DNA from: a bacterium
GTDB lineage: Bacteria > Patescibacteriota > Minisyncoccia > Phycocordibacterales > UBA1006
DNA: 64,000 nucleotides
Assembly (NCBI GenBank): GCA_037144045.1
Contig: JBAWXN010000001.1
Location: forward strand, 134,744-198,743
Reading direction: 5' to 3'
A program made the translations under genes and the position numbers. This document shows positions 9,455-41,725 of this stretch, piece by piece (positions within the stretch are counted from its first letter, which is position 1; each line of letters begins with the position of its first letter). The notes under the pieces were generated by a model that worked only from the letters and a program-made list of their open reading frames with translations, did not search any database and was not told where the DNA came from.

Positions 9455-10534
9455 ATGTCAAAAGATTTTTATAAAATTTTAGGAGTCGAGAAAAACGCCA
9501 GTGAGGCGGATATTAAGGTTGCCTTTAGAAAACTTGCTCATCAACATCATCCCGATAAAAACAAAGGTGATGATAAGAAGTTCAAGGAAATTAATGAGGC
9601 ATATCAAACTCTTTCTGATAAAACAAAACGTGCACAATATGATCAGTTTGGTAGCAGTGGTCCACAGTTTGGTGGTGGCGGAAACCCGTTCGGAGGTGCC
9701 GGAGGCAATCCTTTTGAAGGATTTGATTTTTCACAATTCCAGCAAGGTGCTGGTGGCTTTGAATTTGACCTCGGTGATTTGTTTGGTGGTGGCTTCGGTG
9801 GAGGTCGTGGACGACCTCGGAAAGGAAATGACTTAGAAACAAGTATTAAAATTACTTTTAAAGAATCAGTATTTGGTGTGGAGAAAAAAGTAGCTCTTAC
9901 AAAAAACAATACGTGTGCAACCTGTCATGGAAATGGTGCAAAGCCAGGTACTTCACTGCATACTTGTAAAACCTGTAATGGACAAGGACGTGTTACACGG
10001 GTACAGCGAACTATTTTAGGAAACATGCAAACTGCAATAGAATGTGACGTATGTTTCGGAACGGGCAAGGTTCCTGAAACTAAATGTGATACGTGTCGCG
10101 GTGCGGGAATCGTACGAGGCAAAGAAGAACTCACTATTCATATTCCAGAAGGAATTAATAATGGTGACACGTTACGTATGGACGGTGCAGGGGAGGCAAT
10201 GCCTGGAGTAAAATCAGGTGATTTATATATTCACATTCAGGTAGAATCACATGCGACATTCAAACGTATGGGAAATGATCTAATAATGCCTCTTGAAATT
10301 AAATTAGTAGATGCGCTCCTTGGGAAAAATATCGAAATTGAAACACTGGACGGCAAGGAAATCCTTGAAGTTCCCGAGGGGACTGCAACAGGGGATCAGT
10401 TAAAAATTCGCCACAAGGGAATTCCTCATGGGCGTTCTCGAGGTGATATTATTGTAGGTATTAAAGTGACAATTCCTAAGCGACTTTCTAAAAAAGCAAA
10501 AGAACTTATTGAAGTATTGAAACTGGAGCTGTAG
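9455..10534 (+). CDS. dnaJ: Chaperone DnaJ (Hsp40, type I)
   Basis: J domain with HPD (HQHHPDKNKG), a G/F-rich linker, four CxxCxGxG zinc-finger repeats and a C-terminal domain. Confidence 0.95.
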   Translation: MSKDFYKILGVEKNASEADIKVAFRKLAHQHHPDKNKGDDKKFKEINEAYQTLSDKTKRAQYDQFGSSGPQFGGGGNPFGGAGGNPFEGFDFSQFQQGAGGFEFDLGDLFGGGFGGGRGRPRKGNDLETSIKITFKESVFGVEKKVALTKNNTCATCHGNGAKPGTSLHTCKTCNGQGRVTRVQRTILGNMQTAIECDVCFGTGKVPETKCDTCRGAGIVRGKEELTIHIPEGINNGDTLRMDGAGEAMPGVKSGDLYIHIQVESHATFKRMGNDLIMPLEIKLVDALLGKNIEIETLDGKEILEVPEGTATGDQLKIRHKGIPHGRSRGDIIVGIKVTIPKRLSKKAKELIEVLKLEL

Positions 10535-13218: not shown

Positions 13219-13596
13219 ATGTATACTATCGCAACTATGGCAACAGCTAAAAAAACTACTAAAAAGGCAGCTTCAACAGGAACATTTGCAGTAATTGCAA
13301 CTGGTGGTAAGCAATACTTGGTAAAATCAGGAGACATTATTTCAGTTGAAAAGCTCGAAGGAACTTTTGCAGCAGGGGATACTATTTCTTTTGATCAAGT
13401 ACTCCTCAAGGATGACGGTTCAACAACCGTGCTTGGGACTCCAACCATTAAAGGCGCAACCGTAACTGCTGAATTTGTCGAAGCAGGACGAGGTAAAAAA
13501 ATTGACGTTATTCAATACAAGCAAAAGTCACGTTATTTCAAGAAGAATGGTCATCGCCAGCCTTTCATGAAGTTCAAGATTTCTGATATTAAATAG
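13219..13596 (+). CDS. rplU: 50S ribosomal protein L21
   Basis: FAVIATGGKQYLVKSGDIISVEKL and C-terminal KQKSRYFKKNGHRQPFMKFKI match the L21 family. The N-terminus is a basic extension, and an alternative start exists at 13237. Confidence 0.85.
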   Translation: MYTIATMATAKKTTKKAASTGTFAVIATGGKQYLVKSGDIISVEKLEGTFAAGDTISFDQVLLKDDGSTTVLGTPTIKGATVTAEFVEAGRGKKIDVIQYKQKSRYFKKNGHRQPFMKFKISDIK

Positions 13597-13604
13597 TCAC
13601 TAAA

Positions 13605-13630
13605 ACAACCGGGAAACCGGTTTTTTAGTA
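13605..13630 (+). terminator. Rho-independent terminator after rplU
   Basis: AAAACAACCGGGAAACCGGTTTTTTA. Confidence 0.7.
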
Positions 13631-13730
13631 CTTATGAATAGCAATAATAATTGATTGACATCGGTATGCATATGTAGTATTGTAGTAAAGGAATTTATTT
13701 CTTCACAACCACATATTAAATAGTTTTACC

Positions 13731-14690
13731 ATGAAAGAAAAAACGCACCAACCAGGAACTGGTGACTCAGAAAAACCTGCATTAATAACGGACTTAACCA
13801 ATCTCGCATTGGCCGGGCCTATGGGATTATCATTCCCAAAAGAAGTAGGAATTAAGCAGTTCGATGATCTGAAAGTCGTACTTCCATTATTTACTCAGCT
13901 CGCAGCAGCGGCTCAAAAGCGCAAGCTTTCATTAGATGATATTGCCGGAGCTCTTGGAGTTCAGGGATCAACTACTGTACAAGGTCGCACGTTCTATTCA
14001 CCCGAACAGTCTGATGTGGTAAAAAACATATCAATTGCTTTTGAGTTGGAACAGGATGAGGCAGAACGTAACCGATTATGGAAATTACTTGATTTTGCGT
14101 TAAAGTATGAAATTCTCATACCAGAAACTGAGTCAATTAATACTGTCATTTACGAATTGTTTTCTATCGAACCTGATGTGGTTCGTAAGGCATTCATGAA
14201 AAAATTTGGCTTTGCCAAACCAGCTGAAGACCCTGTAAATAAATCACAGGCGTACGGTATTTGGGATGAAGAAGTTGCAGGACAACTTGCATCTATTTTG
14301 TCACAATTACCGAAAGAAGATGTTACTGATATTTTAAAAGCATTTAACCCGGCTGTGTTGTATTTACTTACTTCATTTGAGGTAAGTGCGTATGTGGGAA
14401 TTGAGGTAGAACGACGCACTGAAATCATGTGCGCACTTCATTACCATGACTTGATTCCAGCGGAATGTCCGTTGTTTCAATTCATTCAGGAAAATGCTCA
14501 TGAAGTATTTGAACATGTAAAGACAAATTTTCTTAATTCCGATTTTACAACGAGCCGACATCAAATACATGAAGAAGCTGATCGTTTGTATGGAGAAAAA
14601 ATGGTGCGATATACCGAGCAACCACCAACAGACGAAGAGGTCCTTGAAGACCTCGTTGATCAAATCGACAAAACCAACACTAATGGGTGA
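13731..14690 (+). CDS. Hypothetical acidic protein (319 aa), first gene of a coupled pair
   Basis: Clean ORF with no signal peptide, TM helix or known motif. A possible promoter (TTGACA, 17 nt, TATTGT) lies at about 13665-13700. Its stop overlaps the start of the next gene. Confidence 0.5.
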   Translation: MKEKTHQPGTGDSEKPALITDLTNLALAGPMGLSFPKEVGIKQFDDLKVVLPLFTQLAAAAQKRKLSLDDIAGALGVQGSTTVQGRTFYSPEQSDVVKNISIAFELEQDEAERNRLWKLLDFALKYEILIPETESINTVIYELFSIEPDVVRKAFMKKFGFAKPAEDPVNKSQAYGIWDEEVAGQLASILSQLPKEDVTDILKAFNPAVLYLLTSFEVSAYVGIEVERRTEIMCALHYHDLIPAECPLFQFIQENAHEVFEHVKTNFLNSDFTTSRHQIHEEADRLYGEKMVRYTEQPPTDEEVLEDLVDQIDKTNTNG

Positions 14691-16557
14691 AAAGAAACGC
14701 AAGGCAAAACCCGCCAACGAAGGAGATCTTCCGTTGGCGGTTAAACGCCAGTCGAAACGGCCAAGTATTTTAAAGAAAACCCACTACAGAAGAAAGACTT
14801 TTGATGAAGGGACTAGCTTGGCTCAACTCGAAGAAAACAGTAAGCGATATGCGATACCTGAGAAAATTATTCGCCTGTGTAGTGAAATTGCTAAACGACA
14901 ATACGTTAATCACAATTTCAAACGGGAAAACCTGGAATGGATCCAGGAACAGGTGTTACGTATTGCAATACTGCTTACGGGTTGTCTTGAACGACAACTT
15001 ATTACTGATGCTGATATCGACAAAGCAGCGACCCCTGATAATGTGTTTCAGCTGCTTAAAAAAGCACTCGGAATTGAACAGTATCAGGTCATGATTGATA
15101 ACAGTACCCTTAAACAGAGAGTGCTTAAGCTGGCACAAGAAAGTACTAATTGGGCTGCAATTTCAGAATTTCGTTATCGAGTATTTATCCCGGCAACAAC
15201 ACCGCAACCTTGTTTGGCGTATCTTGATAAATATCAGGCTGCGATCAAAAGTTTAAAATATCGAGTGCGTTTGTTCGAAATCGTTGAAGATAATGTTCCA
15301 AAAAAAGATCGAGAACATTTCATCGGAATAAAAAATGGTTTTGGAGATAATAAAAAAACACTTTATTATTCTTTACAGGCAATCATTGGTAATTTAGTGT
15401 TGCTTACGTATTTTCAAGCTCGTACCGAGAAAAAAACAGTTGATGACTTTATTGAATTAAAGGATTACTGCAGAAGTAACTTTGAAGAGTTTAAAGCGCG
15501 CTTTCGCGAAACGCTTCATAGCATTATAAAGCCAGAAGCATTCGCTGATGGTATCCTTGCACTCCCTGAGGTGGTTACTAGTTTAAAAAAACTTGAAGAC
15601 CGTGCCAAAAATGGTACTGTCAACAATTTCTTATCTTTCTTCGGTGCTGATCCTGAAATTAGAAAGCTTAACTATAAGCTCAGTAAGGTGGTCATTGAAG
15701 TAGGAAGATGGTGCTATCTACGTAAAGTGCAAGAACTGTCGAGTAATCCTGTTGATTTTGTTTCCCCGTCACTTGCTAAAGCAGCAAACGACGAGTACTT
15801 AGAATTCTTGGATGAATATCCTTGGTTTGCAAAGTTCTTGTCCAAGCTAGAAATAGTAAGGTATTTGATTGCAGAAACCGATGATCAGCGAAAAGCAACT
15901 ATCCGTGGCTTTGTAAATCAGGAACGATTGGGTGAAGCACAGCAGTTGCTTGAAAAACAGGTAACCATTGGTGTCATGTTGAAACACTTTTTAGCGAGTA
16001 ATAGTGACCAACAGGAATCGATCGAAATCAGCGAGCTTATTGCAGAACTGTCACGCAAGAATTTGGGTCGATTAGCGAAAGACCGCCATGTCCGTAGAGC
16101 GCAATTATACATTGATCGACTGCTTACCAAATGGAGTGACACGACTATCATTGATGCAATTCTCGACTTTGAATTACCTGACTATGTGGTGCAGTTGTTT
16201 CCTGTAAGTTACCAGCATTACTTATGGTATTTATATCAATTTAATCTGCTGGGGCGTACTGATTGGAAGCCACCGTTTCCGTATCCTCAAGGAGTACTCG
16301 AACATGTTACTCCTACGGATGTTGACCGCTATGTTAAGAGTCGGGACGACCATAAAAAAATGCGTGAAATGAAAAAAGAAGCAGAGAACAACATTTCAGG
16401 TAGTTCGAAAAAAGATACCGTAACAATTACTGAAGAATCGGATAATGGCGAAGAGTTTAATGATTTTGAAACCATTGAAACGGAAGTTGTAGACGATATG
16501 AGAACTCCAGGTTCAGACGATGCTGATGAGGAGGAAATCCTTAATGGTAAAATATAA
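14683..16557 (+). CDS. Hypothetical large protein (624 aa) with a basic N-terminus and a strongly acidic C-terminal tail
   Basis: Start ATG at 14683 lies inside ATGGGTGA, overlapping the upstream stop by 8 nt. The ORF track starts earlier at 14569, in overlap. No recognisable domain. The C-terminus reads EESDNGEEFNDFETIETEVVDDMRTPGSDDADEEE. Confidence 0.5.
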   Translation: MGEKKRKAKPANEGDLPLAVKRQSKRPSILKKTHYRRKTFDEGTSLAQLEENSKRYAIPEKIIRLCSEIAKRQYVNHNFKRENLEWIQEQVLRIAILLTGCLERQLITDADIDKAATPDNVFQLLKKALGIEQYQVMIDNSTLKQRVLKLAQESTNWAAISEFRYRVFIPATTPQPCLAYLDKYQAAIKSLKYRVRLFEIVEDNVPKKDREHFIGIKNGFGDNKKTLYYSLQAIIGNLVLLTYFQARTEKKTVDDFIELKDYCRSNFEEFKARFRETLHSIIKPEAFADGILALPEVVTSLKKLEDRAKNGTVNNFLSFFGADPEIRKLNYKLSKVVIEVGRWCYLRKVQELSSNPVDFVSPSLAKAANDEYLEFLDEYPWFAKFLSKLEIVRYLIAETDDQRKATIRGFVNQERLGEAQQLLEKQVTIGVMLKHFLASNSDQQESIEISELIAELSRKNLGRLAKDRHVRRAQLYIDRLLTKWSDTTIIDAILDFELPDYVVQLFPVSYQHYLWYLYQFNLLGRTDWKPPFPYPQGVLEHVTPTDVDRYVKSRDDHKKMREMKKEAENNISGSSKKDTVTITEESDNGEEFNDFETIETEVVDDMRTPGSDDADEEEILNGKI

Positions 16558-16580
16558 TAATTATACGCAATAGTATTGCG

Positions 16581-16610
16581 AAACCCTTTGGTATCACCAA
16601 AGGGTTTTTT
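16581..16610 (+). terminator. Rho-independent terminator
   Basis: AAACCCTTTGGTATCACCAAAGGGTTTTTT (9-bp stem). Confidence 0.8.
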
Positions 16611-16658
16611 ATTTACAAAATATATTTTTAATGGTATGGTAATCAAAAATCACGACAA

Positions 16659-17144
16659 ATGAAGAAAGTATTTATTATGGTAACATTCTTGGCACTCTGT
16701 GTCGGATGTGGAAAAGAAAATATTTTATGGCTCGAACCGGGTCATGAGTATGAAATTACTAATATTCTAAACAGGAATCAAAACGGTACCTGGGATGAAC
16801 CCTACAAAAGTGTTGGGCAAAACGGAGTACGGTACACCTTTACCAAATTTCATCCATTAGGATTAAGTGGTGATGGTGAGGTAACAATTGTACGAGGTAA
16901 TGCATTTGGTTCACAAACCGAGACGTATCATTTTACCTGGGACAAGGAAAGTCAAAGGAAAATTTCGTTGAAGTTTTCGCGCTACGATCCGATTATTCAG
17001 GGGCAAAATCCAAATCAAGTCTCATTTTTCGAAACTTTAAATGGTGACTATATTGTCGCGAAAGATTCCCGTTTGAAAGGACAGTTGGTTGCACATACTA
17101 TCGTGCTCCGTAACGATTACCATGAAATAATTTTGCGGCAGTAA
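16659..17144 (+). CDS. Putative lipoprotein
   Basis: Signal peptide with lipobox (FLALCVGCG). 161 aa, no other motif. Confidence 0.5.
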   Translation: MKKVFIMVTFLALCVGCGKENILWLEPGHEYEITNILNRNQNGTWDEPYKSVGQNGVRYTFTKFHPLGLSGDGEVTIVRGNAFGSQTETYHFTWDKESQRKISLKFSRYDPIIQGQNPNQVSFFETLNGDYIVAKDSRLKGQLVAHTIVLRNDYHEIILRQ

Positions 17145-28127: not shown

Positions 28128-30248
28128 TTAAATTGTTCGCGTGTACTCTGTAAGTTCCTCAAAATTTTTAAAGTGAACATTTATACCAAGTTCTTCCTGG
28201 ATAATTGTATTCGCTTTAGTGATTGCCCTATCCAAATGCGGAACAGGTTCACTTTTCGGAATTTCATGAGACATCGCTTTTAGTTCCTCCCACGTATATC
28301 GTCCGCGGTTTGTCCACCACGGAAGACTCGAAGTGACTCCATACGCCCAATGTTCTCTGCATGATTGCTCAAGCAGATCACGAAGTGCATCAACCTTCTT
28401 GTTGCTTGCTGACAAATAACGAAAATCACGATTCAAGTGCAGCAGATGATCGTCTGGGAGAAGTTCAATATATTTGAAATTCCCATTTTTCTCATCAGGA
28501 GCATTTTTTGCAATCCGATAGCGGCTGCTTTTAATTGTCAGAATCGAGTCTCCGTACTTTTCAATAAATGAAAGCCACTTGAGCGTTTGATGCAAGGGTT
28601 CACCAGGCAATCCCACAATAATGAATATGTGAGTATGAATTCCTGCATTTTTTAAATTAGCAAGAATCTTTCCATAGTGATCTGGCTTGTTCCAACGCTT
28701 ATTCTCATTACCAAGCGTTTGAGTGTCCAGACTTTCCAATCCAATTTGCAAACCACGACAACCGGCATCATATAATTGATGACAGACATCAGGATCAAGT
28801 AAGTGGTGATCAGCTGTACTGTAGCAATACCATTCGGCTTTGTATCTATGAACTTTCAATTCTTCCCCAATTTTAAGCTGGGTTTGTATCGGAAGAATTT
28901 CATCGTAGAAATCAAAGCGGTGTCCGTTTGAAGCGATCATTTGCGAAACAATGTGTTTTGCAGATGAGGTTCTTGGCTTCCCAAGAAAAGTATCACTTCC
29001 TCCAGAAATCGAACAGAACTCGCATTGCATAAAGCAATTTGAAGCAGTGTAGAGTGGATAGACAGGCTCGGGAGACCATTGCGTTGCTCCCCCATCGTAT
29101 GAGGGCGTAGGCAGTAACTCAAATGGCATCGGAGTTTTGGCAGGCTTGTTCATCACAAGCTTTTTTCCGTCGCTCCAGACAGTACCAGAAGTAAGATTAG
29201 GTGAAAGATTTTCCGCCAGTTCAAGAATAGGTAGAAAGCCTTCCCTGTATACAATTGCGTCACAACAACGATTGAACAACTCAAAGAATTGCGGTTCGTT
29301 ATATGCTGTCAGTATGCGTGACCAGAAATTGCCCCCAAGGACAATCTTAGTCTCCGGTAAAGCCTCCTTGACCATAGAGGCAAGAATGAGTCCGGGAAAC
29401 AATTGCCGCTCGTCACCAATACTGATTCCATACAAATCGGGTCTGAATGAAAGGAGGTGCGGAATCTCGAGTGCGGTGAAATAGGGATACCAAATATTTG
29501 ATTCTCTATTATTTAGCGCGTTGAGAGCACCCTCAATCGTTCCGTCCTGATAGCTTGCCACATACACTACATTATTCCTTTCAACAGCAAACTTGTCTTG
29601 GGTGGGTACGCTTTTTGAAATTTCTTCAAAAAGTTTTCGAGCCCTATACCAATCATTAATCGTACTGTTCGGGTTTCTGACAATCCTTAATGCTTCAGCG
29701 GTTTTGCTTTTATCGTGAAGAGAAAGTAAGTACTCCAATCCAATAATATGGCCGTATCGTTGCGATACTTCATAATCGCCTTGCCGTAAAAGCGAGGTCA
29801 GATAAGAAATTCCGCTTGGGAAATGCCAAGGCGAAGATACTGGTGGATTGTTGAGAATAATTCTCCGCGATCTTCCAGCAGGAATGATAACAGCTAAAGA
29901 AAACTTTTCCGGTTTAAGGTACTCAATTTTCTTCAAATCAATTTTGATCTTCTTAATGGGAGTCACAGGATGACTAGGTAGGTTTGCGCCATACTCTGGC
30001 TGACCTCCAATAATCACTTCTTGTACTCCAGTGAAGATAATCTTGCCGTTACTAATCGAACCTTGTTCGCCAGTCTCCGGAACATAGTAGGTGTAAAAGC
30101 CGTGAAGCTTTCCATGGGTGTCTATGGTGAATGATGTCTCGGTTGAAAAACCGAAGCTACTCGCCAAAAACAACAACATAAGTGCAAATATTCCGACACC
30201 TTGTATCGTACTCTTTGCTTTTCGGTAAAGTTGAGATTTCGGTTTCAT
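28128..30248 (-). CDS. B12-binding radical SAM protein with an N-terminal membrane anchor and a long C-terminal extension
   Basis: N-terminal TM/signal segment (GIFALMLLFLASSFGFS). B12-binding-like segment (ILNNPPVSSPWHFPSGISYLTSLLRQGDYEV ... KIVLGGNFWS). Radical SAM CxxxCxxC (SNCFMQCEFCS). About 230-aa extension after the core. Total 706 aa. Confidence 0.7.
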   Translation of the reverse strand: MKPKSQLYRKAKSTIQGVGIFALMLLFLASSFGFSTETSFTIDTHGKLHGFYTYYVPETGEQGSISNGKIIFTGVQEVIIGGQPEYGANLPSHPVTPIKKIKIDLKKIEYLKPEKFSLAVIIPAGRSRRIILNNPPVSSPWHFPSGISYLTSLLRQGDYEVSQRYGHIIGLEYLLSLHDKSKTAEALRIVRNPNSTINDWYRARKLFEEISKSVPTQDKFAVERNNVVYVASYQDGTIEGALNALNNRESNIWYPYFTALEIPHLLSFRPDLYGISIGDERQLFPGLILASMVKEALPETKIVLGGNFWSRILTAYNEPQFFELFNRCCDAIVYREGFLPILELAENLSPNLTSGTVWSDGKKLVMNKPAKTPMPFELLPTPSYDGGATQWSPEPVYPLYTASNCFMQCEFCSISGGSDTFLGKPRTSSAKHIVSQMIASNGHRFDFYDEILPIQTQLKIGEELKVHRYKAEWYCYSTADHHLLDPDVCHQLYDAGCRGLQIGLESLDTQTLGNENKRWNKPDHYGKILANLKNAGIHTHIFIIVGLPGEPLHQTLKWLSFIEKYGDSILTIKSSRYRIAKNAPDEKNGNFKYIELLPDDHLLHLNRDFRYLSASNKKVDALRDLLEQSCREHWAYGVTSSLPWWTNRGRYTWEELKAMSHEIPKSEPVPHLDRAITKANTIIQEELGINVHFKNFEELTEYTRTI

Positions 30249-30405
30249 TATTTGAAGATTTTTTGTTAGTGAACATTTTTCGCATTATAACATAAATCAC
30301 TATCTGTTTCAAGGCTTCTGCGACCTCTGGTAGATTAACTTCCTTCTTAAAATTTGTGTAGTTGACTCTTCGACTCTTCTGCTCCGTATCTCTCTTCTCG
30401 CTAGA

Positions 30406-30461
30406 CTTCGTACATCGTTCCGGTATGTTCGTGTGTATGGACCAAACAACGATGTACGGAG
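30406..30461 (+). promoter_or_regulatory. 14-bp inverted repeat (1 mismatch) upstream of the recombinase gene; candidate recombination or regulatory site
   Basis: CTTCGTACATCGTT (30406-30419) ... AACGATGTACGGAG (30448-30461) with a 28-nt spacer. The 10-bp core GTACATCGTT / AACGATGTAC is perfect. Confidence 0.4.
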
Positions 30462-30472
30462 CCCAAATAGGC

Positions 30473-31759
30473 ATGACACCGGTACTACAGGCGGAACCAA
30501 TCCGATACTGCCTCTACGCCCGTAAATCAAGCGAGGCCGAAGAGAAGCAGGCACTCTCGATTGATTCTCAAATAAAGGAAATGCTTGCAATTGCCCAGCG
30601 CGATAACTTGAACATCATAGAGATGTATCGCGAATCTCACTCCGCGAAAGACTGCGGGCAACGGCCTGTGTTCAACAAACTGCTCATCGACATTCGCGAG
30701 GGAAAGTTTGACGGCATACTTGTCTGGCACCCCGACCGACTTTCACGAAATGCCGGAGATCTCGGAGCAATTGTTGATCTACTCGATCAGAAGAAATTGA
30801 TTGAGATCAGGACTTATAGCCAACGGTTCACCAATAATCCAAATGAAAAGTTTCTACTCATGATTCTCGGCTCACAAGCTAAGCTCGAGAATGATAATAA
30901 GAGCATCAATGTGAAGCGAGGATTGAAAACAAAATGCGAGATGGGACTGTGGCCGAGTGTCGCACCAACCGGATATTTAAACTCAAAGAATAGAGATCAG
31001 AAAGGCGTCATTTTTGTAGACCCGGATCGTGGATCAACAATCAAAGAAATCTTTACTCGAGTCGCCTATCAAGGAGCAAGCGGTAGAAAAATCTTCAAAT
31101 GGTTACGGGAAATCAAATTTGTAACGCGAACCGGAAAACCTCTGACCTTGAGCAATATCTACGTTATTTTGAATAATCACTTTTACCACGGCACATTTGA
31201 GTACCCTAAAGCGAGCGGTCGATGGTTTAGGGGTAAGCATGTACCACTAATTACTAAAGAGCTATTTGATGAGGCGCAAAAACAACTTCAATTACAAAGA
31301 AAAGTTAGAGGCAAGAATAAGGAGTTCGCTTTTACCAAACTCATGTCTTGCGGCCTTTGCGGATCTGGTATCACCGCTGAAGAGAAGTATAAAAATCTTA
31401 AAGATGGATCAGTGAACAAATATATTTATTATGGTTGTACACGTGCGCGAGATTCAAACTGCAAGGGTGGGTATGTTGAAGAAAAAGTATTGATTGCTCA
31501 ACTACTTGAGTTGATGGATAAGATTGATCTTGATAAGTCGGGTATCAAGAAAAAGCTTGAGGTGGAAATTGAGCGGCACAAGAAATTTCATTCAGGGATC
31601 ATGGGCAAACCAAACGCTGAATACTATGTCAAAGATGTAGACATACGAAATTATGCGAAATATCTTTTATCCGATGGTTCAATGTTTGAGAAGCGAGACT
31701 TACTTACTTGCCTGAAGAGCAGACTCTCTTTAGAGAATAAAATACTCACTTTAAATTAG
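30473..31759 (+). CDS. Large serine recombinase (resolvase/invertase catalytic domain + recombinase domain + zinc ribbon)
   Basis: YCLYARKSS (catalytic Ser), HPDRLSRNAGD, a central recombinase domain, and Cys pairs (CGLCGS ... CTRARDSNC) for the zinc ribbon. About 48% GC. Start at Met 30473; the ORF track starts at 30362. Confidence 0.88.
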   Translation: MTPVLQAEPIRYCLYARKSSEAEEKQALSIDSQIKEMLAIAQRDNLNIIEMYRESHSAKDCGQRPVFNKLLIDIREGKFDGILVWHPDRLSRNAGDLGAIVDLLDQKKLIEIRTYSQRFTNNPNEKFLLMILGSQAKLENDNKSINVKRGLKTKCEMGLWPSVAPTGYLNSKNRDQKGVIFVDPDRGSTIKEIFTRVAYQGASGRKIFKWLREIKFVTRTGKPLTLSNIYVILNNHFYHGTFEYPKASGRWFRGKHVPLITKELFDEAQKQLQLQRKVRGKNKEFAFTKLMSCGLCGSGITAEEKYKNLKDGSVNKYIYYGCTRARDSNCKGGYVEEKVLIAQLLELMDKIDLDKSGIKKKLEVEIERHKKFHSGIMGKPNAEYYVKDVDIRNYAKYLLSDGSMFEKRDLLTCLKSRLSLENKILTLN

Positions 31760-32664
31760 TGACCTGCGAGAAGTTTGGCAAGCTCAAATATTATTCCTTG
31801 AGCAATAACATTCCCAGCAACTCCTTCAAAGATAGTCTTTAAAGAAGTCAGTGCTATCTTGATTTTTGACTGCTCAGGGAGGTCTTTAGACATTTCTTCC
31901 TTTAGTTCCCTTGCTAGGGTTTGAACATTCTCTGTTTCTTCTACTTGTAGTTTTATCTCAGGAAGAAATTTTTGTATCTGATTCACTAAATCAATCACTT
32001 TTTCTTGAGAAAATCCGTTTGCTTGCTGGATGGAAACATTCGCCTGGTCACTAATACTTCCAATCGTTCCGGCAAAATTTTCTATATGACCAATACTATA
32101 ATTTGTATTAGCAATTTGAGCTTTCTCCTTATCTGTCTGGGAAAAAGAAATACCTTCTCCAACAACCCCTGCTTTTTCAAGTTTTAGAGCCGTATCTAGG
32201 ATGCGATTACGCACAGCATCTAATATCCCCGTAACAGCACTCCTGCCGATCATAAATCCTACATTCGTTTCGTGACCAATTGATTCCATAATGCTTTTCT
32301 TTACTGCATTACTGTAGCTGATTTCAAAAGTGCTAGAATCTGTTTTTACAAGATCATCAAGTTGTCCTACAGGTGAAGTGAGACCTCTTTTCGACATAAG
32401 CTCTCCAGCTTCAGAGTTACCAAATATAATAGGTTGCCAACCGTGATATGGATTCCACGCTTTCGGTTCTCCAGTAATGATCCGATACTCAGGGAGATCT
32501 GCATTGGAAGGAGCATCATAACCATTTAGCTCTTTTTCTATCCAATCACCAAATTCAGTTAAATCAAGTTTAACAGCAACAATTTTTGCTTTTCTTAGCA
32601 AGTCTGAAACCGAGTTGGTGGTATTTGCAGCTTCACTTTGTAATTCTTGGATTATTGATGACAT
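31756..32664 (-). CDS. AbiTii-like abortive-infection protein (putative)
   Basis: N-terminal MSSIIQELQSEAANTTNSVSDLLRKAKIVAVKLDLTEFGDWIEKELNGY matches my recollection of the AbiTii N-terminal signature. The C-terminal half is helical/coiled-coil. Start moved to the internal Met (32664), because the ORF track extension overlaps a tRNA. Confidence 0.35.
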   Translation of the reverse strand: MSSIIQELQSEAANTTNSVSDLLRKAKIVAVKLDLTEFGDWIEKELNGYDAPSNADLPEYRIITGEPKAWNPYHGWQPIIFGNSEAGELMSKRGLTSPVGQLDDLVKTDSSTFEISYSNAVKKSIMESIGHETNVGFMIGRSAVTGILDAVRNRILDTALKLEKAGVVGEGISFSQTDKEKAQIANTNYSIGHIENFAGTIGSISDQANVSIQQANGFSQEKVIDLVNQIQKFLPEIKLQVEETENVQTLARELKEEMSKDLPEQSKIKIALTSLKTIFEGVAGNVIAQGIIFELAKLLAGH

Positions 32665-32709
32665 GTTATTTTTTGACCCCTCTAGGTCCTTCGATACTAA
32701 ACTAAACTG

Positions 32710-32780
32710 CTGCCAGACTTGGACTCGAACCAAGATAAACGGTACCAGAAACCGTTGTCCTACCATTAGACGATCTGGCA
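32710..32780 (-). tRNA. tRNA-Gln (anticodon CUG)
   Basis: Minus-strand cloverleaf TGCCAGATCGTCTAATGGTAGGACAACGGTTTCTGGTACCGTTTATCTTGGTTCGAGTCCAAGTCTGGCA plus discriminator G. Anticodon loop TTCTGGT. Its 3' end faces the recombinase islet. Confidence 0.85.
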
Positions 32781-32907
32781 ATGGTTCCAAAATAACCCAG
32801 AAGGGAATATATCAGAATTGCTCGGACAGTATAGTACCTTTTGATAAAAAATCAAATGTGTGCTATAGTATAATCCAATTTGTTCATAAAAATCCCTTTG
32901 AGTACGC

Positions 32908-40309: not shown

Positions 40310-41725
40310 ATGAAAAACAGGGTATTAATTAATGATTTACAAAATCATGTAGACCAGGAGGTAGTTATTGGTGCGTGGGTAGATACTCGTCGTGACCAAG
40401 GTAAAATGATCTTTTTCGAATTTCGAGACCGAACCGGAAAAGTTCAGGGAGTAACCTTACCTAATAGCGCAGCTCTTGAAGTTGCAAAAACGTTACGAGG
40501 TGAGTGGGTCGTTGCCGTTACTGGAAAAGTAAATAAACGTCCAGAACGAAATGTTCAAGCAGACAAGCAAAATGGTGATATTGAACTTGAGGTGCTCGGT
40601 ATCGAAGTACTGAACGAATCAGAAACACCCGTGTTTGATATTTCAACAGACACCCGAGCAATCGGTGAAGAAGTGCGATTACGTCATAAATACCTCGACA
40701 TGCGCAGTGATCGTGTACAGAAAAATATTCGTATGCGTGCCCATGTTGCAAAATTTGTGAGAGACTTCTTAGCTAATGAAGGATTTATTGAAGTAGAAAC
40801 ACCACTCCTTACTAAATCAACCCCAGAAGGAGCCCGTGACTTTATTGTTCCAGCACGGCTATATCCAGGAAACTTTTATGCGCTTCCGCAATCACCGCAA
40901 CAATATAAACAATTGTTAATGACGGGTGGAATTGAACGGTATTTCCAGGTTGCAAAATGTTTACGTGATGAAGACTCACGTGGAGACCGTCAGCCAGAAT
41001 TTACCCAAATCGATATGGAATTGTCATTTGTGCAACAAGAAGACGTAATGGATGTAAATGAACGCTTGTTGATTAAGGTAGTTCAAGAACTCTATCCTGA
41101 TAAAAAAATTCAACAAATTCCATTTCCTCGTATTACCTATAAAGATGCCATGGAAAAATATGGAAACGATCGTCCAGATTTACGTGAAGACAAGACCGAT
41201 CCTAATTTACTCGCATTTTGTTGGGTAGTAGATTTTCCATTTTTTGAACGAACTGATAAATCAGACAATCCTGATACTCACGGTGAATGGACATTTACCC
41301 ATAATCCATTCTCAGCGCCTAAACCAGAACATATGGACTGGTTAATGAATAAAGAAAACATCGGTGATATTCTTACGACTCAGTATGATATCGCCCTCAA
41401 TGGATACGAAATTGGAGGTGGTTCAATTCGTAACCATAAACCAGATCGATTGCGTAAAGTATTTGAAATCATGGGACATGACCCGGCTGATATTGAATCA
41501 AACTTCGGGCACATGCTTAAGGCATTTTCGTTCGGTACACCACCACACGGGGGTATTGCGTGGGGATTTGATCGTTTGATGATGTTGCTTCAAAACGAAC
41601 CAAATATTCGTGAAGTAATTCCGTTCCCAAAAACAGGGGAAGGAAAAGACTTGATGATGGATTCACCAGCTCCTGTTTCTGATAAACAGTTGAACGAACT
41701 CCAAATTATTGTGAAAAAAGTGTAA
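40310..41725 (+). CDS. aspS: Aspartyl-tRNA synthetase, archaeal/eukaryotic-type short form (no GAD insertion)
   Basis: N-terminal OB anticodon-binding domain. Class II motifs (FYALPQSPQQYKQLLM, FRDEDSRGDRQPEFTQIDMEL, GGSIR). 471 aa, versus about 590 aa for bacterial-type AspRS. Confidence 0.88.
   Translation: MKNRVLINDLQNHVDQEVVIGAWVDTRRDQGKMIFFEFRDRTGKVQGVTLPNSAALEVAKTLRGEWVVAVTGKVNKRPERNVQADKQNGDIELEVLGIEVLNESETPVFDISTDTRAIGEEVRLRHKYLDMRSDRVQKNIRMRAHVAKFVRDFLANEGFIEVETPLLTKSTPEGARDFIVPARLYPGNFYALPQSPQQYKQLLMTGGIERYFQVAKCLRDEDSRGDRQPEFTQIDMELSFVQQEDVMDVNERLLIKVVQELYPDKKIQQIPFPRITYKDAMEKYGNDRPDLREDKTDPNLLAFCWVVDFPFFERTDKSDNPDTHGEWTFTHNPFSAPKPEHMDWLMNKENIGDILTTQYDIALNGYEIGGGSIRNHKPDRLRKVFEIMGHDPADIESNFGHMLKAFSFGTPPHGGIAWGFDRLMMLLQNEPNIREVIPFPKTGEGKDLMMDSPAPVSDKQLNELQIIVKKV

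What the first reader, a model, noticed from the sequence alone, without database searches (positions are those of the whole stretch)
13600..16620. Operon of two large, unannotatable acidic proteins with an ATGGGTGA start/stop overlap (candidate novel system)
The two ORFs (319 aa and 624 aa) sit downstream of rplU, after a terminator and with their own promoter (TTGACA, 17 nt, TATTGT). The second gene's ATG (14683) is embedded in the first gene's last codons (…AATGGGTGA), which is classic translational coupling and implies a stoichiometric complex. Neither has a signal peptide, a TM helix or any motif I can recognise. The second has a basic N-terminus (KKRKAKPANEGD…KRQSKRPSILKK) and an extremely acidic tail. 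rplU is normally followed by rpmA (L27); here it is not.
Basis: seen in the sequence. Interest (0 to 1): 0.55.

Follow-up and report, generated by a model that had tools for sequence, protein, structure and literature searches.

The report
Phage-related orphan gene pair cassette
Two tightly linked genes of unknown function, with no detectable relatives among known protein families or structures, form a removable cassette next to a ribosomal protein gene in an uncultured bacterium and also occur as a pair in a phage, which suggests a new phage-related module rather than a core cell function.

Summary
ORF1 (13731-14690, 319 aa) and ORF2 (14683-16557, 624 aa) overlap in ATGGGTGA. They lie between the rplU terminator and their own terminator, behind a TTGACA-17-TATTGT promoter. 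Both are real genes (dN/dS about 0.11) and NCBI annotates them as hypothetical. Pfam, NCBIfam, PHROGs, PADLOC, PDB sequences and Foldseek gave no hit. Only about nine sequence clusters exist among roughly 15 billion proteins. The two genes are always adjacent, in 8 independent versions, with a junction of -3 to +20 nt, and they diverge in step.

This is not a core operon. The stretch after rplU is a variable slot. One relative has it empty, one carries an unrelated 745-aa ORF there, and a more distant lineage has rplU directly followed by mraZ. A homologous pair sits in a phage contig. ORF1 is acidic (pI 4.7) and probably carries a cro/C1-type helix-turn-helix. ORF2 is near neutral, all-helical, with a basic N-tail, an acidic C-tail and no structural neighbour. 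A stable hairpin lies 28 nt into ORF2 in the chromosomal copies.

Best reading: an accessory, phage-related two-protein DNA-binding module, probably acting in phage-host conflict. The function is inferred, not shown. Interest is moderate.

The parts
13607..13628 (+). Intrinsic terminator of rplU (stem AACCGG/CCGGTT plus T-run); upstream boundary of the cassette
   Evidence: The stem is kept with different sequences in L011 and L002.
13655..13683 (+). Sigma-70-type promoter of the pair (TTGACA, 17 nt, TATTGT)
   Evidence: The -35 TTGACA is invariant in 5 lineages. L002 has a perfect TTGACA-16-TATAAT at the same place.
13688..13703 (+). Imperfect dyad AAGGAAT-tt-ATTTCTT just downstream of the -10; candidate operator (weak)
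   Evidence: Kept at this position in L001, L013 and L011, and perfect in L011 (AGAAATT/AATTTCT). On its own it is not beyond chance: 176-256 of 300 shuffles reach it.
13731..14690 (+). ORF1, 319 aa, acidic (pI 4.7), new family; NCBI MEI8223639.1 'hypothetical protein'
   Evidence: dN/dS is 0.11 against L001.
13905..14057 (+). ORF1 residues 59-109: probable cro/C1 (Xre)-type helix-turn-helix (LSLDDIAGALGVQGST...SPEQ)
   Evidence: hhalign against a 6-sequence cro/C1 alignment gives P 2e-4 to 6e-4, probability 29-47%. None of 200 column shuffles reaches the score. Control profiles score 9-13. Pfam HTH models do not hit.
14629..14675 (+). Conserved acidic C-terminal motif of ORF1 ([ED]x[LI][IV]Dx[IM]D; here EDLVDQID)
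   Evidence: E306, D310 and D313 are invariant across all clades, including the phage copy.
14683..14690 (+). ATGGGTGA start/stop overlap (ORF2 ATG inside the last ORF1 codons)
   Evidence: In relatives the junction is -3, -3, -2, -1, +1, +8 and +20 nt.
14683..16557 (+). ORF2, 624 aa, all-helical, new family; disordered basic N-tail (1-45) and acidic C-tail (572-624); NCBI MEI8223640.1 'hypothetical protein'
   Evidence: dN/dS is 0.11. No structural neighbour was found.
14711..14740 (+). Stable stem-loop (12-14 bp stem) 28 nt inside ORF2
   Evidence: It is unique in the window. It is kept in L001, L013 and L011 with 95.7% of cells paired and 2 compensatory pairs, which is not significant with 4 sequences. 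A hairpin of different sequence sits at the same offset in L002.
16580..16608 (+). Intrinsic terminator of the pair; downstream boundary of the cassette
   Evidence: The equivalent terminator in L002 is at 10008-10037. The cassette-level indel against L021 ends here.
16659..17144 (+). Neighbouring variable lipoprotein gene ('type a', lipobox LCVGC); part of the variable rplU-mraZ island, not of the pair

Best explanation
The locus is a self-contained accessory cassette: promoter, ORF1, ORF2, terminator. It occupies a variable slot directly downstream of rplU, in the gap between rplU and the mraZ cell-division cluster, in an uncultured, unclassified bacterial lineage. It encodes two co-inherited proteins of new families.

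ORF1 is an acidic protein with a probable cro/C1-type helix-turn-helix and a conserved acidic C-terminal motif. ORF2 is a large all-helical protein with a basic disordered N-tail and an acidic C-tail.

Inferred mechanism: the two are made in fixed proportion by translational coupling. This matters in an organism without Shine-Dalgarno sites. The conserved hairpin just inside ORF2 possibly tunes re-initiation. The proteins then assemble into a DNA-associated complex in which ORF1 supplies sequence recognition, probably including autoregulation.

The same pair is carried by a phage. In the host it comes and goes between close relatives, alternates with unrelated cargo, and evolves about three times faster than its neighbours. 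Its most likely role is therefore in phage-host conflict: an immunity, exclusion, addiction or abortive-infection type module of phage affinity.

Shown: gene reality, cassette structure, co-inheritance, accessory status, the phage homologue, and the absence of known relatives. Inferred: the complex, DNA binding, and the conflict role.
For: Real genes under purifying selection:
- dN/dS is 0.111 (ORF1) and 0.110 (ORF2) against L001. Neighbouring genes give 0.031-0.045.
- GC and GC3 match the host genes.

Cassette:
- The promoter -35 and the flanking terminators are conserved.
- L002 differs from its 91%-identical relative L021 by a clean indel of promoter-ORF1-ORF2-terminator, placed in front of a shared lipoprotein promoter.

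Accessory status:
- The slot is empty in L021.
- It holds an unrelated 745-aa ORF in L023, which is 79% identical in core genes.
- rplU abuts mraZ in L015-L018.

Co-inheritance:
- An ORF1 homologue immediately precedes an ORF2 homologue in all 8 independent versions.
- Paired identities to the window are 81/79, 81/77, 74/68, 39/31, 35/27 and 34/26 %.

Phage link:
- Contig L008 (ENA ERZ4224321 NODE_2066, 30 kb) has about 38 small same-strand ORFs.
- These hit phrog_3757 (1e-46), phrog_3163 (2e-25), an HNH endonuclease phrog_2118 (1e-16), phrog_3424 and phrog_10066, and give tblastn hits to diverse phages.
- The contig is also Shine-Dalgarno-poor and 39.8% GC, like the window.

Helix-turn-helix in ORF1.

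Charge complementarity: ORF1 net -17 to -23 in all versions; ORF2 core +5 to +13 in the chromosomal copies, with N-terminal 50 residues at +8 to +12 in clade A.

Hairpin.

Uneven divergence: against L002 the pair has dN 0.62-0.77 while core genes have 0.18-0.25. L011 is equally distant in core genes yet keeps 73/68% identity in the pair.
Against: - No defence, toxin or antitoxin model matches. PADLOC gave only a 0.041 non-hit, and Pfam and NCBIfam gave none.
- The proteins are far larger than typical two-gene addiction modules.
- No catalytic motif and no invariant histidine are present in ORF2.
- The cassette has kept the same position in lineages whose synonymous sites are saturated. That is more stable than most defence cargo.
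- The helix-turn-helix is below Pfam detection. As a single sequence ORF1 ranks only third of 63 window proteins against the HTH profile.
- The candidate operator dyad is not beyond chance.
- Hairpin covariation is not significant with 4 sequences.
- The complex was never modelled.
- Only one of the three divergent 'clade C' contigs can be shown to be phage. L006 and L007 are about 2 kb.
- No homologue occurs in GenBank phages, IMG/VR or PLSDB plasmids.
Confidence: 0.4

Rival explanations
1. Captured phage replication module. ORF1 would be an origin-binding initiator (lambda O-like: about 300 aa, N-terminal DNA-binding domain). ORF2 would be an all-helical helicase loader or replisome organiser (lambda P or SPP1 G38P/G39P-like). 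The palindrome inside ORF2 would be a DNA site.
For: - In phage contig L008 the pair lies among early or nucleotide-metabolism-type genes. A nucleoside deoxyribosyltransferase-like gene lies immediately upstream and an AAA ATPase with clamp-loader-like PHROG hits lies downstream.
- ORF1 has a probable HTH.
- ORF2 is helical, with an acidic tail of the kind common in replisome proteins.
- There is a conserved palindrome within the coding sequence.
Against: - There is no match to Pfam or PHROG replication-initiator or loader families. The only trace is a sub-threshold RepB_C hit in one member, E 0.007.
- No iteron-like direct repeats occur in or near the genes.
- A lone phage replication module would not be expected to stay under purifying selection with its own strong promoter in a chromosome that has no other prophage genes nearby.
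- The palindrome is absent from the phage-like copies.
Confidence: 0.15
2. Ordinary lineage-specific transcription regulator plus partner. It would control neighbouring envelope genes (the variable lipoproteins) or the mraZ cell-division cluster. The phage copy would be a host gene picked up by the phage.
For: - ORF1 has a probable HTH.
- The position is stable next to the lipoprotein genes and mraZ in 6 loci.
- Selection is purifying.
- Composition is fully host-like.
Against: - Lipoprotein genes and the mraZ cluster occur with or without the pair: L021 and L023 have the lipoproteins but no pair, and L011 has the pair but no lipoprotein.
- The phage-like branch is the more diverse one. Its three versions are only 37-50% identical to each other, which argues against a recent host-to-phage pick-up.
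- A 624-aa partner with no sensor or enzyme domain is unusual for a regulator.
Confidence: 0.15
3. Lineage-specific housekeeping factor linked to the ribosome or to cell division, suggested by its place between rplU and mraZ and by the ribosomal-protein-like basic tail of ORF2.
For: - It lies between rplU and the dcw cluster.
- ORF2 has a K/R/P-rich N-tail in the chromosomal copies.
- Selection is purifying.
Against: - The pair is absent from close relatives that keep identical flanking genes (L021, L023, L015-L018).
- It has its own promoter and is insulated from rplU by a conserved terminator.
- It evolves about 3 times faster than its neighbours.
- A phage homologue exists.
Confidence: 0.07
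4. Not functional: chance ORFs, decaying pseudogenes or a gene-calling artefact.
For: The only support is the lack of any annotation.
Against: - dN/dS is about 0.1 with saturated synonymous change.
- The full-length reading frames are intact in all complete versions recovered, across three clades.
- The promoter and terminators are conserved.
- AlphaFold is confident for the ORF2 core: 408 residues with pLDDT of at least 70.
Confidence: 0.02

Closest known systems
Type II toxin-antitoxin or abortive-infection pairs led by an HTH protein (for example HipB-HipA, Xre-RES, AbiEi-AbiEii)
   Same: - Two adjacent co-transcribed, translationally coupled genes.
- The first protein is acidic with a probable cro/C1-type HTH, and the second has a basic core.
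- They are found on phages and in chromosomes.
- They show presence/absence between close relatives and evolve faster than core genes.
   Different: - No toxin or antitoxin domain is detectable.
- Both proteins are much larger.
- The HTH is internal (residues 59-109), not at the extreme N-terminus.
- The cassette position is stable over deep divergence.
- Toxicity and neutralisation are untested.
Phage 'morons' and hotspot cargo (independent promoter-gene-terminator units inserted between conserved genes)
   Same: - The unit is bounded by its own promoter and terminator.
- It is inserted as a block between conserved genes.
- Alternative unrelated cargo occupies the same slot in relatives.
   Different: - Here the slot lies between core chromosomal genes, not in a prophage.
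- In the phage contig the pair has no promoter of its own and is embedded in a gene array.
Phage lambda O/P-type replication initiator plus loader
   Same: A DNA-binding protein of about 300 aa is followed directly by an all-helical partner without NTPase motifs, in an early-gene neighbourhood in the phage contig.
   Different: There is no sequence or profile match, no iterons, and the partner is three times larger than lambda P. The chromosomal copies stand alone without other phage genes.
cro/C1 (Xre, Pfam HTH_3) DNA-binding domain superfamily (for ORF1 residues 59-109 only)
   Same: The in-register pattern is hydrophobic-S-x-x-[DE]-hydrophobic-A-x-x-hydrophobic-G-hydrophobic-x-x-S-T, followed by a helix. 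Profile-profile P is 2e-4.
   Different: It is below the detection limit of the Pfam models. It is embedded in a 319-aa acidic helical protein whose remaining 200-plus residues match nothing.

Membership tests
Type II toxin-antitoxin module | Two adjacent, co-transcribed, usually overlapping genes | tested here: met
   One promoter, one terminator, and a junction of -3 to +20 nt in 8 versions.
Type II toxin-antitoxin module | Toxin belongs to a recognised toxin superfamily | tested here: not met
   Pfam, NCBIfam and PADLOC gave no hit for ORF2 or any family member. Foldseek gave no hit.
Type II toxin-antitoxin module | Antitoxin has a DNA-binding domain and autoregulates at an operator in the promoter | tested here: inconclusive
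   The HTH is supported only by profile-profile comparison. A dyad sits next to the -10 but is not above chance.
Type II toxin-antitoxin module | Toxin arrests growth and the antitoxin neutralises it | not testable with these tools
   This needs expression experiments.
Known anti-phage defence systems (PADLOC-DB 2.0) | Match to a defence-protein model | tested here: not met
   The best result was PDC-M49B at E 0.041 for ORF1, and none for ORF2.
cro/C1 (Xre) helix-turn-helix superfamily (ORF1 59-109) | Match to Pfam HTH models at the gathering threshold | tested here: not met
   No HTH model appeared, even at E up to 1, for any of 8 members.
cro/C1 (Xre) helix-turn-helix superfamily (ORF1 59-109) | In-register profile similarity to helices 2-5 of bona fide cro/C1 domains | tested here: inconclusive
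   hhalign P is 2e-4 and 6e-4, probability 47% and 29%. None of 200 column shuffles reaches it. ORF2 control profiles give P 0.1-0.48. The single sequence is not distinct from the background.
Lambda O/P-like replication initiator and loader | Match to initiator or loader families, and iterons within or next to the initiator gene | tested here: not met
   No Pfam or PHROG match and no iteron-like direct repeats.
rplU-rpmA ribosomal protein operon | An L27 gene follows rplU in one transcript | tested here: not met
   No L27 signature occurs in the window. A conserved terminator follows rplU.
Phage moron or hotspot cargo | Own promoter and terminator; block presence/absence between conserved flanks; alternative cargo in the same slot | tested here: met
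Phage moron or hotspot cargo | Located in a phage or prophage genome | tested here: not met
   The window flanks are core genes (cysS, corA, rplU, mraZ, rsmH, ftsI). The phage copy in L008 lacks a promoter gap of its own.

The most novel reading that the evidence does not exclude
The pair is a new two-protein phage-host conflict (immunity or defence) system built on a new helical fold. It would be shared between an uncultured, possibly ultra-small bacterial lineage and its phages, carried in a chromosomal hotspot next to rplU. Expression of its second subunit would be set by a structured RNA at a Shine-Dalgarno-independent re-initiation junction.
Probability: 0.25. Interest if true: 0.65.

Novelty: categorically new. 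Interest (0 to 1): 0.42.

Why it matters
If the conflict reading is right, this would be a defence or immunity type module that no current catalogue (PADLOC, Pfam, PHROGs) can see. It would come from a part of the bacterial tree, and from its phages, where almost nothing is known about immunity. ORF2 would add a new fold of roughly 500 residues.

The locus is also a clean natural example of a cargo hotspot between two highly conserved core genes (rplU and mraZ). In addition it shows translational coupling in an organism without Shine-Dalgarno sites, with a conserved hairpin just after the restart codon, which could be tested as a re-initiation signal.

The limits are plain. The family is extremely rare (about nine clusters among roughly 15 billion proteins), the hosts are uncultured, and no function has been shown. 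'New' here means that no relationship could be detected, not that a new mechanism has been demonstrated.

Tried and rejected
Searches that found nothing:
- Pfam, NCBIfam, PADLOC and PHROGs gave nothing above noise on the window proteins and on all family members. Sub-threshold MgtE_N, DabA, DUF5667, RepB_C and HTH_62 hits were not consistent across clades and were rejected.
- PDB sequence searches with single proteins and with profiles found nothing. This includes the weak 4hfv_A hit at E 0.043.
- Foldseek of the ORF2 model (pLDDT 71) against PDB and BFVD gave a best E of 0.7-1.3 and TM at most 0.12.
- Foldseek of the ORF1 model is meaningless because the model is poor (pLDDT 43).
- tblastn against GenBank phages and PLSDB plasmids found nothing.
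- Pattern scans of IMG/VR, JGI metagenome contigs and GTDB genomes found nothing. Because of this the phylum could not be named. NCBI calls the genome just 'bacterium'.

Ideas tested and rejected:
- ORF1 and ORF2 are not paralogues.
- ORF2 has no internal repeats.
- No target-site duplication or flanking repeat marks the cassette. The only candidate is a 12-nt repeat that may be chance.
- A tyrosine-recombinase or telomere-resolvase reading of ORF2 (helical, with a beta-hairpin and many invariant K/R/Y) was rejected. ORF2 has no invariant His and no HxxR motif, and Foldseek gave no hit.
- A caspase-like reading of the unrelated 745-aa ORF in L023, made by eye, was not supported by Pfam or PDB.

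Other dead ends:
- The rest of the phage contig could not be fetched.
- Literature searches by accession found nothing relevant.
Full report
**1. The observation**

ORF1 runs 13731-14690 (319 aa). ORF2 runs from the ATG at 14683 to 16557 (624 aa). The ORF2 start lies inside the last ORF1 codons (ACT AAT GGG TGA against ATG GGT GA), an 8-nt overlap.

rplU (13219-13596) is a clear L21 gene. It is followed by a hairpin plus T-run at 13607-13622. The site TTGACA-17-TATTGT lies at 13655-13683, and a 13-bp-stem terminator follows ORF2 at 16580-16608.

The scan finds about as many promoter-like sites as shuffles do, so the consensus match alone means little. Conservation is the real evidence. The -35 TTGACA is invariant in five lineages, and L002 has a perfect TTGACA-16-TATAAT at the same place. 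The rplU terminator stem is kept with different sequences.

Neither protein has a hydrophobic stretch of membrane-helix strength.
- Only ORF1 is acidic (pI 4.7). ORF2 is near neutral (pI 6.8), with a basic N-tail and an acidic C-tail.
- The ATGGGTGA overlap is specific to this genome. Relatives have junctions from a 3-nt gap to a 20-nt overlap, always tight.

**2. Are these real genes?**

Yes. Against the closest full locus (L001), dN/dS is 0.111 for ORF1 and 0.110 for ORF2, with dS above 1. Eight neighbouring core genes give 0.031-0.045.

GC and third-position GC equal those of the host genes. The window is part of an NCBI metagenome-assembled genome labelled only 'bacterium'. The two products are MEI8223639.1 and MEI8223640.1, both 'hypothetical protein'.

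**3. Are they unannotatable?**

Sequence libraries:
- Pfam, NCBIfam, PADLOC and PHROGs gave nothing above noise for the window proteins or for any family member.
- PDB sequences matched nothing, even with family profiles.

Family size:
- A word-indexed search of 5.8 billion clusters found only 4-5 close relatives of each protein.
- An exhaustive HMMER search of 1.84 billion representatives with the ORF2 profile found only three further clusters, P0010, P0011 and P0012.
- A profile search for ORF1 added P0013 and P0014.

Structure:
- AlphaFold2 gave a usable ORF2 model from the 8-sequence alignment (mean pLDDT 71). Residues 46-350 are mostly above 80, the fold is all-helical, and residues 1-45 and 572-624 are disordered.
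- Foldseek found no neighbour for it in PDB or BFVD (best E 0.7-1.3, TM at most 0.12).
- The ORF1 model was poor (pLDDT 43), so its search is uninformative.
- ORF1 and ORF2 are not paralogues, and ORF2 has no internal repeats.

**4. Co-conservation**

Every ORF2 homologue whose contig could be read is immediately preceded by an ORF1 homologue. This holds for:
- the window;
- L001, L013, L011/L012 and L002/L003;
- the phage-like L008/L005;
- L006, where only the ORF1 tail is on the contig;
- L007, where only the ORF2 head is on the contig.

The two proteins diverge in step. Identities to the window are 81/79, 81/77, 74/68, 39/31, 35/27 and 34/26 %. Three clades appear:
- Clade A: the window, L001, L013 and L011.
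- Clade B: L002/L003.
- Clade C: L008, L006 and L007. Its members are only 37-50% identical to each other.

**5. The pair is an accessory cassette**

In clades A and B the pair always lies between rplU and mraZ, within the same block dnaK-dnaJ-cysS-corA-rplU-[pair]-mraZ-rsmH-ftsL-ftsI. Relatives found through the conserved MraZ protein show that the slot is variable:

| Locus | Core-gene identity | Content of the slot after rplU |
|---|---|---|
| L015-L018 | 71-73% to the window | Nothing: rplU directly followed by mraZ |
| L021 | 91% to L002 | No pair; only a lipoprotein gene |
| L023 | 79% to the window | Unrelated 745-aa ORF, then two lipoprotein genes |

The 745-aa ORF of L023 shows no similarity to either family and no Pfam or PDB hit.

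Comparing L002 with L021 shows a clean block difference. The unit promoter-ORF1-ORF2-terminator sits between the rplU terminator and a lipoprotein promoter that both loci share. The lipoprotein genes themselves (types a and b) also come and go.

Divergence is uneven. L011 and L002 are about equally distant from the window in core genes (79% and 78%). Yet the pair is 73/68% identical in L011 and 39/31% in L002. Either the cassette was exchanged for a divergent version in one lineage, or its evolution was strongly episodic. The data cannot separate the two.

**6. Phage link**

P0011 and P0013 lie on a 30-kb ENA contig, of which 16.9 kb could be read (L008).
- About 38 mostly small ORFs lie almost all on one strand, with strong GC skew.
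- Of 20 proteins tested, five match phage orthologous groups: AAA ATPase phrog_3757 (1e-46), phrog_3163 (2e-25), an HNH endonuclease phrog_2118 (1e-16), phrog_3424 and phrog_10066.
- Two of the proteins give tblastn hits to diverse phages.

I take this to be a phage fragment, although no virion genes are in the part available. Like the window, it is 39.8% GC and almost free of Shine-Dalgarno motifs. That fits a phage of a related host but does not prove it. The family was not found in GenBank phages, IMG/VR or plasmids.

**7. Features bearing on mechanism**

ORF1:
- It is acidic in every version (pI 4.5-4.8, net -17 to -23).
- Residues 59-109 (AAAQKRKLSLDDIAGALGVQGSTTVQGRTFYSPEQ...) look like a cro/C1-type helix-turn-helix.
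hhalign aligns helices 2-5 in register, with P 2e-4 for the fragment and 6e-4 for the whole family, and probability 47% and 29%.
- None of 200 column shuffles reaches these scores. The reversed alignment, the ORF2 family and five ORF2 segments score 9-13 against 26-28.
- As a single sequence, ORF1 is not distinct from other window proteins, and Pfam HTH models do not hit. I therefore rate the helix-turn-helix as probable, not established.
- ORF1 also ends in an invariant acidic motif, [ED]x[LI][IV]Dx[IM]D.

ORF2:
- The invariant residues are mainly K, R, Y and W, with no invariant His and no NTP-binding loop.
- The chromosomal copies carry a K/R/P-rich disordered N-tail, much expanded in L002. 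Most copies carry an acidic C-tail.

Translation and the hairpin:
- The organism has no Shine-Dalgarno motifs, and many genes look leaderless. The tight ORF1/ORF2 junction is therefore the likely means of starting ORF2 translation.
- A stable hairpin lies 28 nt inside ORF2 (14711-14740). It is unique in the window.
- It is kept in L001, L013 and L011 with 96% of cells paired and two compensatory pairs, and folding z-scores are -2.4 to -4.0.
- A hairpin of unrelated sequence lies at the same offset in L002. It is absent from the phage-like copies.
- With four sequences the covariation is not significant.

Candidate operator: a dyad next to the -10 (13688-13703) is positionally conserved but not beyond chance.

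**8. Interpretation**

The shown facts are these: a self-contained cassette; two co-inherited new protein families; accessory status in a hotspot with alternative cargo; a phage-borne homologous pair; faster evolution than the core under purifying selection; and a probable DNA-binding domain in the first protein.

Together these fit best an accessory, phage-related module that forms a DNA-associated two-protein complex and acts in phage-host conflict, whether immunity, exclusion, addiction or abortive infection. I give this 0.4.

Arguments against it:
- There is no recognisable effector.
- The proteins are large.
- The position has been stable over long times.

Rival readings:
- A captured phage replication initiator and loader (0.15).
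- An ordinary regulator plus partner for neighbouring envelope genes (0.15).
- A lineage-specific housekeeping factor (0.07). This is disfavoured because the pair is absent in close relatives.
- Non-functional ORFs (0.02). This is refuted by the selection data.

**9. Comparison with what is known, and novelty**

By architecture the pair works most like HTH-led two-gene modules and moron or hotspot cargo. It fails the membership tests for toxin-antitoxin families, for catalogued defence systems and for lambda O/P. The HTH assignment is inconclusive.

No relationship to any known family or structure could be detected for ORF2 or for most of ORF1. I therefore rate it categorically new, in the sense of 'unplaced', not of a demonstrated new mechanism.

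Orphan gene pairs are common in uncultured bacteria, and this family is very rare and narrow. That keeps the interest moderate at 0.42. The phage link, the hotspot behaviour, the absence of any structural neighbour for ORF2 and the conserved junction hairpin lift it above an ordinary hypothetical protein.

Noticed in passing
window 28128-32790: A B12-type radical SAM gene (28128-30248, minus strand), a large serine recombinase (CcrB/XisF-like, 30362-31759) and tRNA-Gln(ctg) (32709-32780, minus strand) lie together. GC skew drops to about 0 over 28-34 kb, while the rest of the window is steadily positive. This is a possible integrated element at a tRNA gene.
   Followed up: no
window, gene starts throughout (for example 12247-, 13180-, 19044+, 57055+): No Shine-Dalgarno motifs occur upstream of any of 23 starts inspected. 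Several genes have a -10-like hexamer (TATACT, TATAGT, TACAAT, TAAAAT) only 6-12 nt before the ATG, which suggests widespread leaderless mRNAs. The phage-like contig L008 is also nearly SD-free, 5 of 35 starts by a loose definition.
   Followed up: partly
window 14711-14740; L002 8025-8053: A strong hairpin lies about 25-30 nt inside ORF2 in all chromosomal copies. Its sequence differs between clades A and B, and it is absent in the phage-like copies. It could be a re-initiation or pausing signal, or a DNA site.
   Followed up: partly
window 13586-13597 and 13713-13724: An exact 12-nt direct repeat, ATATTAAATAGT, occurs once at the rplU stop codon and once immediately upstream of the ORF1 ATG. 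The two copies bracket the terminator-promoter spacer. It could be a scar of cassette insertion or chance in AT-rich DNA.
   Followed up: no
window 16659-17144; L013 4320-4790; L002 10088-10699 and 10814-11185; L021 774-1361; L023 5962-7004: Two unrelated small lipoprotein genes (types a and b) downstream of the slot are gained and lost independently between lineages. They diverge fast, 41-50% identity where core genes are 73-79%.
   Followed up: partly
L023 3637-5874: In a relative with 79% core-gene identity, the slot after rplU holds a single unrelated 745-aa ORF with no Pfam or PDB match. By eye its C-terminal part has an HG...C pattern reminiscent of caspase-like proteases, but this is unsupported.
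   Followed up: partly
window 40310-41725: The aspartyl-tRNA synthetase is only 471 aa. It matches the bacterial AspRS model in two stretches, so it lacks the usual insertion domain. NCBI calls it 'amino acid--tRNA ligase-related protein'.
   Followed up: no
window 13219-13596 and relatives: rplU is monocistronic with its own terminator in every relative examined, and no L27 gene is present in the 64-kb window. The rplU-rpmA linkage is simply absent in this lineage.
   Followed up: partly
L015-L018 (for example L015 5326-6105, minus strand): The pair-less, 51%-GC sister lineage has an extra 259-aa ORF with no Pfam hit between corA and rplU. This is another variable spot next to rplU.
   Followed up: no
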